NCBI RefSeq assembly: GCF_003334765.1
Contig: NZ_QOWT01000006.1
From: Escherichia coli
GTDB lineage: Bacteria; Pseudomonadota; Gammaproteobacteria; Enterobacterales; Enterobacteriaceae
DNA: 64,000 nt
Strand: one strand, 5' to 3'
Shown: positions 3,645 through 64,000 of the stretch, one piece after another
Layout: each line of letters opens with the position of its first letter
Numbering within the stretch: position 1 is the stretch's first letter
Position numbers and translations under genes: made by a program
The notes under the pieces: generated by a model
What the model was told of the DNA's origin: nothing
What the model saw: the letters and a program-made list of their open reading frames with translations, nothing else
Database searches by the model: none

Positions 3645-4512
3645 TGAGGTTCACCCGTTTCCTGGTCAGCAGAATGACAGCGAAAATAATGATGAAGAGC
3701 ACCACCGAGATCGCCGCCGCTTTTCCTAAATCATTAAAGGCAAAGGCGGTTTTGTAGAGATATACACCGAGAATATCGACCTTGGTCGTCAGCAAATAAA
3801 CATCCGCGAACATGTAGAACATCCAGATGGTGCGCAGTGTCACCACCGTCGCCAGGACCGGCATAATTGCGGGCAGCGTGACGATACGAAACCGTTGCCA
3901 GGCATTAGCGCCATCCATCTCTGCCGCTTCGTACAGCGATTTGTCGATGGTCTGCAAAATCGCCAGAAACGAGATAAAGGCATACGGGAAGTAGCGCCAG
4001 ATGGCGAACAGCACCACCAGCACAAAGCTACTGCCCGGATTATCGAACCACAGCGGTGCCTGCTCATAGAGATGCAGAAGATCGACGCCGAGGTAGTTAA
4101 CAATGCCGTAGCCGTTGTTGAACATGTATTTCCAGGCGAACACCAGCGAAATGGACGGCGTTACGTAGGAGAGGATCACCAGCGAACGCGCGGTTTTGCG
4201 CAGGCGGAACTCGCGGTTGAAAAACATCGCCACCGCCAGCCCGAGCACGGTGCTGCCCGCCACCACCAGCGCGGTATACCAGACCGTCATCCACAGCGAA
4301 TGCCAGAAGCCGGGATCGGAGAGGATACGCACATAGTTGCTCACCCCAACAAACGTTGACTCGATGTTGGGATTGAGCGGCAGACGTAAAAAACTGATTT
4401 CGATATTCGACACCATCGGCCACGCCACCAGACCGCCCAGCAGTAATAAGCTGGGCGCGAGAAGCAGCAGCGCAAAGGGCATATCGGAACGACCTGAAAA
4501 AAGCCTGTTCAT
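3631..4512 (-). CDS. ycjO: ABC sugar transporter permease (MalF-like)
   Basis: 293-aa hydrophobic ORF. Confidence 0.92.
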   Translation of the reverse strand: MNRLFSGRSDMPFALLLLAPSLLLLGGLVAWPMVSNIEISFLRLPLNPNIESTFVGVSNYVRILSDPGFWHSLWMTVWYTALVVAGSTVLGLAVAMFFNREFRLRKTARSLVILSYVTPSISLVFAWKYMFNNGYGIVNYLGVDLLHLYEQAPLWFDNPGSSFVLVVLFAIWRYFPYAFISFLAILQTIDKSLYEAAEMDGANAWQRFRIVTLPAIMPVLATVVTLRTIWMFYMFADVYLLTTKVDILGVYLYKTAFAFNDLGKAAAISVVLFIIIFAVILLTRKRVNLNGNK

Positions 4513-41903: not shown

Positions 41904-42066
41904 AGCTCCTCCTTAATGACAGGGTTGCGAAGCCCTGATTCTCTTCAGGGTGAATATTAAAGATAACACAAACATCGCGTAACGATTTGATAACAACCCA
42001 AATTGATAAAAGAGGAGAAACCTTGTGGCAAAGCAAATGACAACCCCGCCGCAGCGGGGTCAAGGA

Positions 42067-42162
42067 TCAGTGAGTAATGATCCAGAGGAGTTCGGCCCAG
42101 AAGAGCATCGACAGAGAAAACGCGCCCATCCAGGACCAATATTTCATATTTGTGTTGATCAT
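42067..42162 (-). CDS. candidate 31-aa hydrophobic small protein (MINTNMKYWSWMGAFSLSMLFWAELLWIITH)
   Basis: Hand-translated codon by codon; ATG start, TGA stop, followed within about 10 nt by a ccccgc-tgcg-gcgggg hairpin on the coding strand; below the ORF-track size cutoff. Confidence 0.4.
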   Translation of the reverse strand: MINTNMKYWSWMGAFSLSMLFWAELLWIITH

Positions 42163-42275
42163 AGGCTACACCCTTAACGGTTATTATTTTGTGTTGAGAT
42201 AACTCAAGCTGTTATTGCTGCGGTGTATTAAAAGCCCTTTAATTCATTAAAAATGGGTAATAAGAATGATGATAA

Positions 42276-54651: not shown

Positions 54652-54696
54652 ATGAAAGCAATTTTCGTACTGAAAGGTTGGTGGCGCACTTCCTGA
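54652..54696 (+). CDS. trpL: trp operon leader peptide ([14 protein letters not shown])
   Basis: 14-codon ORF with tandem Trp codons at 54679-54684. Confidence 0.9.
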
Positions 54697-54737
54697 AACG
54701 GGCAGTGTATTCACCATGCGTAAAGCAATCAGATACC

Positions 54738-54767
54738 CAGCCCGCCTAATGAGCGGGCTTTTTTTTG
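54738..54767 (+). terminator. trp attenuator (3:4 terminator hairpin)
   Basis: cagcccgcc-taatga-gcgggc followed by an 8-nt T run, 21 nt upstream of trpE. Confidence 0.9.
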
Positions 54768-61698: not shown

Positions 61699-61878
61699 AT
61701 GGCCGAACATCGTGGTGGTTCAGGAAATTTCGCCGAAGACCGTGAGAAGGCATCCGACGCAGGCCGTAAAGGCGGTCAGCATAGCGGCGGTAATTTTAAA
61801 AATGATCCGCAACGCGCATCTGAAGCGGGTAAAAAAGGCGGTCAACAAAGCGGTGGTAATAAATCAGGCAAATCCTGA
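61699..61878 (+). CDS. yciG: KGG-repeat stress-induced small protein
   Basis: ORF track 61642..61878; internal ATG start MAEHRGGSGNFAEDREKASDAGRKGGQHSGGNFKNDPQRASEAGKKGGQQSGGNKSGKS (59 aa). Confidence 0.85.
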   Translation: MAEHRGGSGNFAEDREKASDAGRKGGQHSGGNFKNDPQRASEAGKKGGQQSGGNKSGKS

Positions 61879-61963
61879 TTCACCGTTAATTATTAATATC
61901 AGCTGATAAAGATAATTGCATCTGCGGGCCGTATGGCTCGCAGTGATTTCACTGGAGAAAAAT

Positions 61964-62464
61964 ATGAATATGAAGACCATTGAAGATGTATTTATTCACC
62001 TGCTTTCAGATACCTACAGCGCAGAAAAACAATTAACCCGGGCACTGGCAAAACTCGCAAGAGCAACATCAAATGAAAAATTAAGTCAGGCTTTTCATGC
62101 GCACCTCGAGGAAACTCATGGACAGATTGAACGTATTGATCAAGTTGTGGAGTCCGAATCGAACCTGAAAATTAAGCGCATGAAATGTGTGGCAATGGAA
62201 GGTCTTATTGAAGAAGCTAATGAGGTCATCGAAAGTACCGAGAAAAACGAAGTGCGTGATGCCGCACTGATTGCCGCAGCACAGAAAGTCGAGCATTATG
62301 AGATTGCCAGTTACGGGACATTAGCGACGCTGGCTGAACAATTAGGTTACCGTAAAGCAGCGAAGCTTCTGAAAGAAACCCTGGAAGAAGAAAAGGCCAC
62401 CGACATCAAACTGACTGATCTGGCCATTAATAACGTAAATAAGAAAGCCGAAAATAAAGCCTGA
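61964..62464 (+). CDS. yciF: DUF892 ferritin-like stress protein
   Basis: ORF track 61916..62464; internal ATG start MNMKTIEDVFIHLLSDTYSAEKQLTRALAKLA... (166 aa). Confidence 0.9.
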   Translation: MNMKTIEDVFIHLLSDTYSAEKQLTRALAKLARATSNEKLSQAFHAHLEETHGQIERIDQVVESESNLKIKRMKCVAMEGLIEEANEVIESTEKNEVRDAALIAAAQKVEHYEIASYGTLATLAEQLGYRKAAKLLKETLEEEKATDIKLTDLAINNVNKKAENKA

Positions 62465-62509
62465 AATATGAATTTTAACTTTTAGTCATTTTATAAAGAG
62501 GACATTTTC

Positions 62510-63016
62510 ATGAATCGTATTGAACATTATCATGACTGGTTACGTGACGCCCACGCAATGGAAAAGCAAGCCGAATCTATGCTTGAATCCATGGCCAGCC
62601 GTATAGATAATTATCCTGAACTACGCGCTCGTATTGAACAACATCTTAGTGAAACCAAAAACCAGATTGTTCAACTGGAAACTATTCTTGATCGTAATGA
62701 CATTTCACGTTCAGTCATTAAAGATTCCATGAGTAAAATGGCTGCGCTTGGGCAGTCAATCGGTGGTATATTCCCTTCTGATGAAATAGTCAAAGGCTCT
62801 ATTAGCGGATATGTCTTCGAGCAATTTGAAATCGCCTGTTACACCTCACTATTAGCAGCAGCAAAAAATGCCGGTGATACAGCTTCAATTCCAACCATCG
62901 AAGCGATTTTAAATGAGGAAAAGCAAATGGCCGACTGGCTGATTCAGAATATTCCGCAAACAACTGAGAAATTTTTAATTCGCTCTGAAACTGATGGCGT
63001 AGAAGCGAAGAAATAA
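62510..63016 (+). CDS. yciE: DUF892 ferritin-like stress protein
   Basis: 168-aa ORF MNRIEHYHDWLRDAHAMEKQAESMLESMASRIDNYPELRARIEQHLSETK... Confidence 0.9.
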   Translation: MNRIEHYHDWLRDAHAMEKQAESMLESMASRIDNYPELRARIEQHLSETKNQIVQLETILDRNDISRSVIKDSMSKMAALGQSIGGIFPSDEIVKGSISGYVFEQFEIACYTSLLAAAKNAGDTASIPTIEAILNEEKQMADWLIQNIPQTTEKFLIRSETDGVEAKK

Positions 63017-63040
63017 TACCCTTTATACCATGTCCTTATT

Positions 63041-63068
63041 GACCCCGTATATTACGGGGTCGTTTTTG
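63041..63068 (+). terminator. rho-independent terminator after yciE (shared with convergent ompW remnant)
   Basis: gaccccgta-tat-tacggggtc hairpin followed by gtttttgtg. Confidence 0.7.
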
Positions 63069-63075
63069 TGCGGAA

Positions 63076-63195
63076 TTAAAAACGATATCCTGCTGAGAAC
63101 ATAAACACCCACGGATCGAGGCGTACGCTATCGTGTTGCTGTGCACCGCCCAGCTTATAATTGGCGGTGGTATCGATATCCATGTACCACACTGG
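63076..63195 (-). pseudogene. ompW: displaced 3' fragment of ompW (last 39 codons only, no start)
   Basis: Minus strand encodes PVWYMDIDTTANYKLGGAQQHDSVRLDPWVFMFSAGYRF* (OmpW C-terminus); an in-frame TGA lies immediately 5' and the upstream sequence is unrelated AT-rich DNA. Confidence 0.75.
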
Positions 63196-63504
63196 TAGGT
63201 TTCAAAAAACACAATAACCAATTGTATTTGAAGCAAAAAACAAGACTTTGAGATGTTTTTTTTGTACCTTTTTTTATGCTTTTAACTGTCTGATTTTATT
63301 GAAATCTTTTTTAGTTTTGCAGAAGGAATTTTTTACTTGATTGTAACTTTTTCGTTTTTTTGGGGCTAATTGACGCGCAATGCTGGGCGGGGAGCGCACA
63401 GCCAAAAAAACCGAAATTGACCGCTAATTACTGCCAATCATCATCGCTCTGATTGAGCGTAAATCATTCAGGTTATTCAGTTCTTCCTTCTGCTCTCGCT
63501 GACG

Positions 63505-63675
63505 TCAATAAATCCCATCATTGCGATCAACCTCATCCTTAACCATTGATGCGAGCAGTTCTTCCAGTTTCTGCGCTGACAGCTTTACCTGGTGATCTTC
63601 AGCATCTTCCCGGGCTATTGTGGTTCGCGCAGTGGCTGATTTTGCTGACATCACCACAGGGGGCAGACGGACCAT
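63505..63675 (-). CDS. hypothetical 56-aa protein within the prophage arm (MVRLPPVVMSAKSATARTTIAREDAEDHQVKLSAQKLEELLASMVKDEVDRNDGIY)
   Basis: Internal ATG of the 93-aa track ORF 63505..63786, whose own start is TTG; ggagg SD about 10 nt upstream; same strand as the tfa-like gene; no family recognised. Confidence 0.3.
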   Translation of the reverse strand: MVRLPPVVMSAKSATARTTIAREDAEDHQVKLSAQKLEELLASMVKDEVDRNDGIY

Positions 63676-63789
63676 TGAACCATGGCCTCCGGAACAAATA
63701 AGGGCAAAAATAACAACCACTATCGAAAGCTCACAAACTAACCGCAGCACGTTCCTGCATACGACGTGTCTGCGGCATAATCCCAATGA

Positions 63790-64000
63790 TTACTCCCTGA
63801 CAGGATTTGCAGGCCACTCAATATCAGGTGCAGTTGATGTATCAACACGATTCAACAATACCCGATATTTATTCCATGCCTCCAGCAACGATCTTTCTTC
63901 CTCCGTTGCGATTTCCAGATCTACAGCATCCTGCAGTGGCGCAATATACTCACTGAATTCCTGGATGTAGAACTGTGTGGTGACGGTCTTCCAGCCATTC
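63790..64000 (-). CDS. phage tail fibre assembly protein, C-terminal part (N-terminus beyond window end)
   Basis: Hand-translated: ...[69 protein letters not shown]; the W-x-K/R-YR-x-x-L-x-RVD-x-S-x-APDI-x-WP signature matches what I recall of lambdoid/P2 Tfa C-termini. Confidence 0.6.

What the first reader, a model, noticed from the sequence alone, without database searches (positions are those of the whole stretch)
63076..64000. Prophage-like insertion in ompW at the window edge
Next to yciE, where I recall the intact ompW gene in K-12, only the last 39 codons of ompW remain (PVWYMDIDTT...SAGYRF*), with an in-frame stop directly upstream. From about 63196 the DNA becomes AT-rich and then encodes a phage tail-fibre-assembly-type C-terminus on the minus strand, reading towards the junction. 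That is what the tail-fibre end of an integrated tailed phage looks like, with the displaced native ompW 3' end marking the att site. Everything else in the window is core genome, so the accessory cargo of interest lies beyond position 64000.
Basis: partly seen in the sequence, partly recalled or inferred. Interest (0 to 1): 0.8.

Follow-up and report, generated by a model that had tools for sequence, protein, structure and literature searches.

The report
Lambda-like prophage end in ompW
The last 800 bases of the window are the tail-fibre end of a lambda-like prophage inserted in the 3' end of the outer-membrane gene ompW, an insertion hotspot already described and occupied in about a third of complete E. 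coli genomes, so the finding is correct but ordinary.

Summary
Window 63076-63194 (minus strand) is the native ompW 3' end and matches K-12 base for base. Identity to K-12 stops after 63194. From 63195 the DNA is phage: an AT-rich attachment-site arm, a tail-fibre C-terminal pseudogene (63424-63693), and a tail-fibre-assembly-like C-terminal ORF (63790 to past the window end; Pfam PF02413, E = 3e-25).

A four-way comparison shows the textbook recombination pattern. It used K-12 attB, the contiguous attP of Escherichia phage 204576, the far junction in a genome 100 % identical to the window's last 2143 bases, and the window. The four share a 28-bp identical core (63167-63194) inside a 121-bp imperfect att. 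That length matches the 121-bp att published for 'PPompW' lambda-like prophages (PMC8112680).

In three near-identical genomes the element runs 29 to more than 49 kb. In the two where the far end was reached it ends with xis, a lambda-type integrase and a full-length ompW rebuilt from a phage-borne 3' end. ompW is therefore not destroyed.

In 5426 complete E. coli genomes the int-ompW junction occurs in 1715, the empty site in 3440, and this exact right end in 598.

The tfa-like frame is only a C-terminal remnant or short 89-aa ORF; the working tfa lies beyond 64000. Whether this strain's prophage is intact cannot be told from the window.

Verdict: already known, low interest.

The parts
63040..63069 (+). 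Native chromosomal hairpin plus T-run between yciE and ompW (intrinsic-terminator-like). It stays with the displaced ompW 3' end and is not part of the phage.
   Evidence: Terminator scan: 10-pair stem TGACCCCGTATATTACGGGGTCG followed by TTTTTGTGCG. Identical in K-12.
63076..63194 (-). Displaced native 3' end of ompW: stop codon, 38 codons (Val175-Phe212) and 2 bases of the Ser174 codon. It has no start codon or promoter and is a gene fragment (the B' side of attR).
   Evidence: 119 of 119 identical to K-12 ompW. Translation. RefSeq annotates it as 'OmpW family outer membrane protein, incomplete, missing N-terminus' in identical genomes.
63074..63194 (.). 121-bp imperfect att homology: the stretch that is present both in the chromosome (ompW 3' end) and in the phage (substitute ompW 3' end).
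   Evidence: 95 of 121 identical between the window copy and the attP copy of phage 204576. Alignment A1. The length equals the 121-bp attL/R reported for PPompW (PMC8112680).
63167..63194 (.). 28-bp core GTGGTATCGATATCCATGTACCACACTG, identical in attB, attP, attL and attR. Strand exchange must have taken place within it.
   Evidence: Invariant columns of the four-way alignment. One copy in the window, one in K-12, one in the phage record, and two in each lysogen whose far end was fetched.
63195..63423 (.). Phage-derived, AT-rich, non-coding arm of the attachment site (the P arm in the lambda convention).
   Evidence: Diverges from K-12 at 63195 and continues colinear and near-identical (a few mismatches in the T-runs, net length unchanged) with the attP region of phage 204576. 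GC 0.32. No ORF with a family match and no Rfam hit.
63314..63325 (+). Candidate arm-type integrase binding site GTTTTGCAGAAG, 120-131 bp from the core.
   Evidence: Same motif and orientation as three tandem exact copies of TTTTGCAGAG lying between the int stop codon and the substitute ompW stop codon (L001 48903-48936; L005 3843-3883). That it binds integrase is inferred, not shown.
63424..63693 (-). Pseudogene: C-terminal part of a tail-fibre (DUF4376-type) gene with an internal stop at 63505-63507. The 93-aa ORF 63505-63786 is a run-on of this remnant.
   Evidence: PHROG phrog_1141 'tail fiber protein', positions 106-191 of 194, E = 3e-21, and phrog_7703, E = 3e-25. RefSeq: 'DUF4376 domain-containing protein; internal stop; missing N-terminus'.
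63790..64000 (-). Tail-fibre-assembly-like C-terminal ORF, cut by the window end. In identical genomes it is an 89-aa ORF whose ATG lies at the position equivalent to 64057-64059.
   Evidence: Pfam PF02413, E = 3e-25, model 75-130 of 131. The full 89-aa ORF covers phrog_2341 positions 1-88 of 88, E = 4e-61. 81 % identical to residues 132-194 of the adjacent full Tfa. Annotated as a partial pseudogene, and frameshifted in strain B-1109.

Best explanation
Window 63195-64000 is the right (tail-fibre) end of a lambda-like temperate prophage of the published 'PPompW' kind, and 63074-63194 is its attR junction in the 3' end of ompW. Shown: the window is chromosome-like (K-12) up to 63194 and phage-like from 63195. 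A phage record carries the unrecombined attP in the order int, three TTTTGCAGAG repeats, a diverged copy of the last 121 bp of ompW, then this arm. Lysogens carry the reciprocal junction at the far end. All four sites share a 28-bp identical core. Inferred mechanism: a lambda-type tyrosine integrase with an N-terminal arm-binding domain bridges the arm repeats and the core sites. It exchanges strands within the 28-bp core of attP and ompW. Because the phage brings its own ompW 3' end, a full-length 212-aa ompW is rebuilt beside int. The native last 38 codons, together with the yciE/ompW terminator, are pushed 29 to more than 49 kb away and remain as the dead fragment seen in the window. The space between attR and the working tail-fibre genes is the usual variable 'moron' end of lambdoid phages. 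Here it holds decayed tail-fibre and tfa duplicates and, just past the window, a SAM-dependent methyltransferase gene. Whether this strain's prophage is complete or defective cannot be decided from the window.
For: Breakpoint and K-12 identity. Contiguous attP in Escherichia phage 204576 (CP025907.1) and the four-way att pattern. Two cores per lysogen, 47,722 bp apart in EC24 and 28,844 bp apart in B-1109. Prophage gene content beyond the position equivalent to 64000 in genomes identical to the window over its last 1.2-2.1 kb, or near-identical over its last 25 kb. Integrase has PF09003 (lambda Int arm-binding domain, 1.6e-21) and PF00589 (2.4e-16). Excisionase phrog_629. Rebuilt OmpW is 212 aa and scores 361 bits against the NCBIfam OmpW equivalog (cut-off 287) even for the 186-aa part fetched. 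tfa and tail-fibre remnants. Arm repeats. Population counts: same right end in 598, int-ompW junction in 1715 and empty attB in 3440 of 5426 complete genomes. Literature: ompW is a known hotspot; PPompW has a 121-bp att and was found in 44 % of 767 complete genomes.
Against: The window ends 806 bp into the element, so the integrase, the second att copy and the body of the phage are not seen in this genome itself. They are inferred from other genomes with the identical junction. The interiors of those relatives differ: one looks complete, one has lost the head and tail genes, and one is broken by two IS66 elements. Integrase binding to the TTTTGCAGAG repeats is inferred by analogy with lambda. 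No exact IHF consensus was found in the arm.
Confidence: 0.95

Rival explanations
1. Only a relic is left. The prophage has been largely or wholly deleted in this strain, so the window shows an orphan attR with a few dead tail-fibre fragments and little or no cargo beyond 64000.
For: Both phage reading frames inside the window are remnants. The genome closest over the last 25 kb (B-1109) carries a deleted, 28.8-kb version in which a tail-fibre fragment is fused to a terminase fragment.
Against: All three relatives examined still carry at least 28.8 kb of phage DNA. The two whose far end was reached also retain xis, int and a rebuilt ompW; in 23CRST047 the fetched 49.9 kb ended before that end. 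The two genomes examined that are 100 % identical to the window's last 1.2-2.1 kb have near-full-length elements.
Confidence: 0.04
2. The element beyond 64000 is not a single prophage. It is a tandem or nested cluster (a prophage integrated in a prophage), as described for some PPompW loci in STEC.
For: Nested and tandem prophages at ompW are documented (PMC8112680). In 23CRST047 the element exceeds 49.5 kb within the stretch fetched.
Against: The 21-bp secondary attB (attB-in-PP_1) that receives the nested phages is absent from the window and from EC24's prophage, even with 3 mismatches allowed. No T3SS effector locus is present at this end. The extra length in 23CRST047 is at least partly accounted for by two IS66 insertions.
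Confidence: 0.05
3. Not an insertion at all: this is an ancestral or alternative native arrangement of the yciE-ompW region, or an assembly chimera at the contig end.
For: None beyond the fact that the window stops before any integrase.
Against: 3440 genomes have the uninterrupted site. A phage record has the unrecombined attP. 598 independent complete assemblies have the same junction. The sequence from 63195 on matches phage families.
Confidence: 0.01

Closest known systems
PPompW: lambda-like prophages integrated in ompW of E. coli (Nakamura et al. 2021, PMC8112680; the site was first described by Creuzburg et al. 2011, as cited in PMC3603311)
   Same: Same target gene and same 121-bp imperfect att (63074-63194 here). 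Lambda-like gene order with the tail-fibre end at this junction and int at the other. Very wide distribution: 44 % of 767 genomes in the paper, 1715 of 5426 here.
   Different: The STEC/EPEC PPompWs described there carry an exchangeable effector locus (nleA, nleH, nleF, espM, nleG) and a 21-bp secondary attB at this very end. Here that end has no effector genes and no 21-bp site. It holds only tail-fibre and tfa remnants and a SAM-methyltransferase gene.
Escherichia phage 204576 (GenBank CP025907.1)
   Same: 97.5 % identical over 63195-64000. It holds the contiguous attP whose right arm is colinear and near-identical with the window's phage arm and whose left arm equals the far junction of the lysogens.
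   Different: It is an unannotated 31.5-kb record. The match to the window is split in two pieces, so the region around the tfa remnant and the methyltransferase is arranged somewhat differently.
Phage 21 and e14 at icd (Wang et al. 1997, as cited in PMC3603311)
   Same: Same strategy: integration inside the 3' end of a protein-coding gene, with the phage carrying a diverged substitute 3' end. The gene keeps its length and the native end is left as a displaced fragment.
   Different: Different target gene and core sequence. The relationship of the integrases was not tested here.
Bacteriophage lambda Int/attP system
   Same: Integrase with the lambda arm-binding domain (PF09003) and a tyrosine-recombinase catalytic domain, with an excisionase next to it. 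Three tandem repeats on the int side of attP and one about 125 bp out on the other arm, which resembles lambda's P'1-P'3 and P1/P2 layout (own knowledge of lambda).
   Different: Different core and arm sequences. attB is intragenic rather than between gal and bio. The int-side repeats lie 90-130 bp from the core because the substitute ompW end sits in between. Binding was not tested.

Membership tests
PPompW-type prophage junction (attR in ompW) | Chromosomal ompW sequence is interrupted within its 3' end; the native sequence continues to a defined breakpoint and then is replaced by foreign DNA | tested here: met
   Identical to K-12 to base 63194 and divergent from 63195.
PPompW-type prophage junction (attR in ompW) | 121-bp att sequence shared (imperfectly) between the phage and ompW | tested here: met
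   63074-63194 is 121 bp and 95 of 121 identical to the attP copy in phage 204576. This equals the length published in PMC8112680.
PPompW-type prophage junction (attR in ompW) | Reciprocal junction (int, phage-borne ompW 3' end, core, ompW 5' part) at the other end of the element | not testable with these tools
   It lies beyond the window. It is present in the relatives with the identical attR whose far end was reached (EC24 and B-1109), and the int-ompW junction is present in 1715 genomes.
PPompW-type prophage junction (attR in ompW) | An unrecombined attP exists that joins the two phage-side arms | tested here: met
   CP025907.1 (L005 about 3840-4270) carries int, repeats, substitute ompW end, core and arm in one piece.
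PPompW-type prophage junction (attR in ompW) | Tyrosine integrase of the PPompW type (more than 90 % identity to EC112648_1574 in the paper's definition) | not tested
   The integrase of the relatives has PF09003 and PF00589, but it was not compared with the O145:H28 reference gene. It is not in the window.
PPompW-type prophage junction (attR in ompW) | Exchangeable effector locus and 21-bp attB-in-PP_1 at the attR-proximal end (a feature of the STEC/EPEC subset, not of all PPompWs) | tested here: not met
   No match to GTCATGCAGTTAAAGTGGCGG with up to 3 mismatches in the window or in L001. No effector genes are annotated in the relatives.
Tail fibre assembly protein (Pfam PF02413 Caudo_TAP; lambda Tfa) | Significant match to the family profile | tested here: met
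   E = 3e-25. PHROG tail-fibre-assembly families at 1e-18 to 1e-22.
Tail fibre assembly protein (Pfam PF02413 Caudo_TAP; lambda Tfa) | Full-length domain (about 190-aa protein covering the whole profile) | tested here: not met
   Only model positions 75-130 of 131 are matched. The ORF is 89 aa in identical genomes, against 194 aa for the neighbouring Tfa. It is annotated as a partial pseudogene. It does cover the whole of the 88-aa phrog_2341, of unknown function.
OmpW outer membrane protein gene | Complete coding sequence (212 aa with signal peptide) | tested here: not met
   The window holds only codons 175-212 plus the stop, preceded by an in-frame TGA. The complete gene sits at the far end of the element in the relatives.
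Lambda-type attP architecture | Arm-type integrase sites on both arms, bound by the N-terminal domain of Int | tested here: inconclusive
   The motif GTTTTGCAGAG occurs three times next to int and once (1 mismatch) at 63314-63325, all in the same orientation. The 10-mer with 1 mismatch is not rare across the whole 49.5-kb locus (10 found, 4.6 expected). The argument therefore rests on the position of the copies, and binding is untested.

The most novel reading that the evidence does not exclude
The phage-borne ompW 3' end may be more than a neutral patch. In lysogens the rebuilt OmpW differs from the native protein only at seven clustered residues, 185-194 (N185K, L188S, G190V, A191T, Q192T, Q193V, H194K). 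These lie between the last two beta-strands, which by the eight-strand OmpW-family topology is extracellular loop L4 (PMC2993939). OmpW is the colicin S4 receptor (PMC2649078) and a phage receptor in another enterobacterium (PMC10132071). Integration could therefore act as a lysogenic conversion that re-surfaces a receptor loop in about a third of E. coli strains. My evidence does not exclude this, but nothing here supports a functional effect. The divergence is equally explained by the substitute end having been captured long ago from a different ompW allele: almost every third codon position from 183 to 199 also differs.
Probability: 0.1. Interest if true: 0.45.

Novelty: already known. Interest (0 to 1): 0.08.

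Why it matters
It matters little as a discovery. ompW is a textbook-level prophage integration hotspot in E. coli, and this junction recurs in hundreds of complete genomes. The practical value is in annotation. The 38-codon ompW piece, the 93-aa and 116-aa ORFs, and the tfa-like frame at the window edge should not be called as genes. ompW should not be scored as inactivated in such strains, because a full-length copy with a phage-supplied 3' end is expected at the other end of the element. Any strain-specific cargo (defence candidates, methyltransferases, kinase/phosphatase pairs) differs between otherwise near-identical backbones, so it has to be read from this strain's own sequence beyond 64000.

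Tried and rejected
- Rfam at gathering thresholds over the whole window gave nothing in 63000-64000. An RNA element in the AT-rich arm was dropped.
- The 93-aa ORF 63505-63786 (minus) and the 116-aa ORF 63620-63970 (plus) were considered as possible cargo genes. The first is a run-on of the tail-fibre pseudogene: only its residues 34-93 match phrog_1141/7703. The second is antisense to the remnants and has no support.
- A DinI-family gene annotated under the match in some genomes is a short partial pseudogene at or past the window end (B-1109, locus 1557-1637). It was not pursued.
- The exact IHF consensus WATCAANNNNTTR was not found on either strand of the arm 63195-63440.
- The 21-bp secondary attB of STEC PPompWs is absent.
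- NCBIfam gave no hit above cut-off for the integrase, the excisionase or the methyltransferase. PADLOC gave no hit for the methyltransferase.
- I tried to pin down the source genome. B-1109 is best over the last 25 kb but differs over the last 1.1 kb (99.7 %) and has 57 mismatches in the first 39.4 kb. EC24 and 23CRST047/049 are 100 % identical over the last 1.1 kb. No single record was shown to be the source, so the content beyond 64000 remains inferred.

Full report
**What is in the sequence**

Upstream of the finding the window carries trpA, yciG, yciF and yciE on the plus strand. A hairpin plus T-run follows yciE at 63040-63069.

On the minus strand, 63076-63210 translates as VF*NLPVWYMDIDTTANYKLGGAQQHDSVRLDPWVFMFSAGYRF*. 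Against K-12 MG1655 (locus L002), bases 63076-63194 are identical to the ompW 3' end, 119 of 119. The first mismatch is base 63195.

So 38 native codons (Val175-Phe212) and the stop survive. The 'P' codon is a junction hybrid, and an in-frame TGA lies at 63202-63204.

From 63195 the GC content drops to 0.32. The minus-strand frame from 63999 to 63790 ends in ...[31 protein letters not shown]. It matches Pfam Caudo_TAP (PF02413) at 3e-25.

**Proof that it is an attachment-site junction**

A megablast of 63195-64000 against phage records found Escherichia phage 204576 (CP025907.1) at 97.5 % over the full length. In that record an integrase ORF is followed by:
- three tandem TTTTGCAGAG repeats;
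- a diverged copy of the last 121 bp of ompW;
- a sequence colinear and near-identical with window 63195 onwards.

I aligned the window, this phage, the far junction of strain EC24 and K-12 (alignment A1). The result is the classical pattern:
- the window equals K-12 left of the core and the phage right of it;
- EC24's far junction equals the phage left of the core and K-12 right of it;
- all four share GTGGTATCGATATCCATGTACCACACTG (window 63167-63194).

The wider homology, 63074-63194, is 121 bp and 95 of 121 identical between the chromosomal and phage copies. The window copy is purely chromosomal up to 63166 and the far junction is purely phage-like. Strand exchange therefore took place inside the 28-bp core. 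The core occurs once in the window, K-12 and the phage, and twice in the lysogens.

**What lies beyond 64000**

The window itself cannot say. EC24 is identical to the window over all 2143 bases compared (window 61858-64000). 23CRST047 is identical over window 62802-64000. B-1109 is the best match over the last 25 kb.

In all three, a lambda-like prophage follows the position equivalent to 64000:
- a SAM-dependent methyltransferase gene;
- a full 194-aa tfa, a tail-fibre gene, lom and J;
- tail and head genes and terminase;
- lysis genes, tRNAs and Q/RusA;
- replication and immunity genes, and dicB.

In EC24 and B-1109, whose far end was reached, this is followed by exo, xis, int and then a full-length ompW. 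In 23CRST047 the fetched stretch ended within the immunity region.

Core-to-core sizes are 47,722 bp in EC24 and 28,844 bp in B-1109. In B-1109 the head and tail genes are deleted. In 23CRST047 the element exceeds 49.5 kb and two IS66 elements break J and the large terminase gene.

The interiors are mosaic and differ between these backbones. The cargo of this particular strain is therefore unknown, and so is whether its prophage is intact.

**Mechanism**

The relatives' integrase has the lambda Int arm-binding domain (PF09003, 1.6e-21) and the tyrosine-recombinase catalytic domain (PF00589, 2.4e-16). An excisionase (phrog_629) lies next to it.

The motif GTTTTGCAGAG occurs three times in tandem between the int stop codon and the substitute ompW stop codon. 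It occurs once more, with one mismatch and in the same orientation, at window 63314-63325, which is 120-131 bp from the core. From my own knowledge of lambda, this resembles the P'1-P'3 and P1/P2 arm sites. I infer, but have not shown, that these are the arm-type Int sites.

Integration leaves ompW intact:
- The rebuilt gene encodes 212 aa and passes the NCBIfam OmpW equivalog cut-off.
- It differs from K-12 OmpW only at seven residues, 185-194. There are 26 nucleotide differences, confined to positions 549-621.
- The native last 38 codons and the terminator are displaced to the yciE side. That displaced piece is what the window shows.

**The phage DNA inside the window**

Apart from the non-coding arm (63195-63423), it consists of remnants.
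- 63424-63693 is the C-terminal part of a tail-fibre/DUF4376 gene with an internal stop (phrog_1141 positions 106-191 of 194, 3e-21).
- The tfa-like frame matches only the last 56 positions of the Pfam model. It is 81 % identical to residues 132-194 of the neighbouring full Tfa.
- In identical genomes that frame is an 89-aa ORF with its ATG at the position equivalent to 64057-64059. It covers the whole of the 88-aa phrog_2341, of unknown function.
- RefSeq annotates both as pseudogenes, and the tfa-like one is frameshifted in B-1109.

**How common and how well known**

Counts among 5426 complete E. coli genomes:

| Feature | Genomes |
|---|---|
| Uninterrupted K-12-type site | 3440 |
| int-ompW junction | 1715 |
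| Same right end as the window | 598 |

The literature already describes this. ompW is listed among the most occupied integration hotspots (PMC3603311). Nakamura et al. 2021 define 'PPompW' lambda-like prophages with a 121-bp attL/R and found them in 44 % of 767 complete genomes (PMC8112680).

There is one difference from the STEC/EPEC PPompWs studied there. This end has no effector locus and lacks the 21-bp secondary attB.

**The rest of the window**

It is colinear, without gaps, with B-1109. There are 57 mismatches in the first 39.4 kb and a single 100 % piece over the last 25 kb. It carries named core genes from ycjS to yciE.

**Verdict**

The feature is a known and very common prophage junction.

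One idea is not excluded. The phage-supplied ompW end rewrites the loop between the last two strands. By the eight-strand OmpW-family topology this is extracellular L4 (PMC2993939). OmpW serves as the colicin S4 receptor (PMC2649078). I give a functional effect about a 10 % chance, because the pattern also fits an old capture of a foreign ompW allele.

Noticed in passing
L003 29516-30154 (strain B-1109, far end of the element); corresponds to the gene whose displaced end is window 63076-63194: The ompW rebuilt by integration is full length (212 aa). It differs from K-12 OmpW only at seven clustered residues, 185-194 (N185K, L188S, G190V, A191T, Q192T, Q193V, H194K). These lie at the tip of the last hairpin, presumably extracellular loop L4. 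Nearly every third codon position from 183 to 199 differs as well.
   Followed up: partly
L001 48903-48936 and L005 3843-3883; window 63314-63325: Three tandem exact copies of TTTTGCAGAG fill the 45 bp between the integrase stop codon and the substitute ompW stop codon. A fourth copy, with one mismatch, sits in the window's phage arm. They are candidate arm-type integrase sites. A 12-nt perfect palindrome (AAAACTGGTCAT/ATGACCAGTTTT) spans the int stop codon.
   Followed up: partly
L003 5061-6690 (B-1109 prophage); L001 34698-35888 (EC24 prophage); L004 38363-39867 (23CRST047 prophage): Prophages at the same site in near-identical backbones carry different accessory genes. B-1109 has a pair matching PADLOC PD-Lambda-2_C/'beta' and 'cll' models, plus a SMEK-domain protein with a weak match to an Argonaute-associated model. 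EC24 has an AbiL-like ATPase. 23CRST047 has a Ser/Thr kinase plus PP2C phosphatase pair and QueH.
   Followed up: partly
window 63790-64000 and just beyond (L001 1933-2927): A SAM-dependent methyltransferase gene (phrog_2132, no PADLOC or NCBIfam match) on the opposite strand is sandwiched between the full tfa and the 89-aa tfa-like ORF (phrog_2341). The same trio occurs in phages ev243 and 2G7b. It looks like a moron inserted into a duplicated tfa 3' end.
   Followed up: partly
window 42033-42235 (-) and 54673-54766 (+): Rfam gathering-level hits: the enterobacterial sRNA STnc180 (198 bits) and the trp operon leader (93 bits). Both are expected core-genome features.
   Followed up: no
L003 30393-30482 (B-1109, chromosome between ompW and yciC, outside the window): A partial 'YkgJ family cysteine cluster protein' pseudogene is annotated in the ompW-yciC intergenic region. 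PMC8112680 notes that another secondary attB in prophages resembles the ykgJ/ecpE intergenic region. No link was examined.
   Followed up: no
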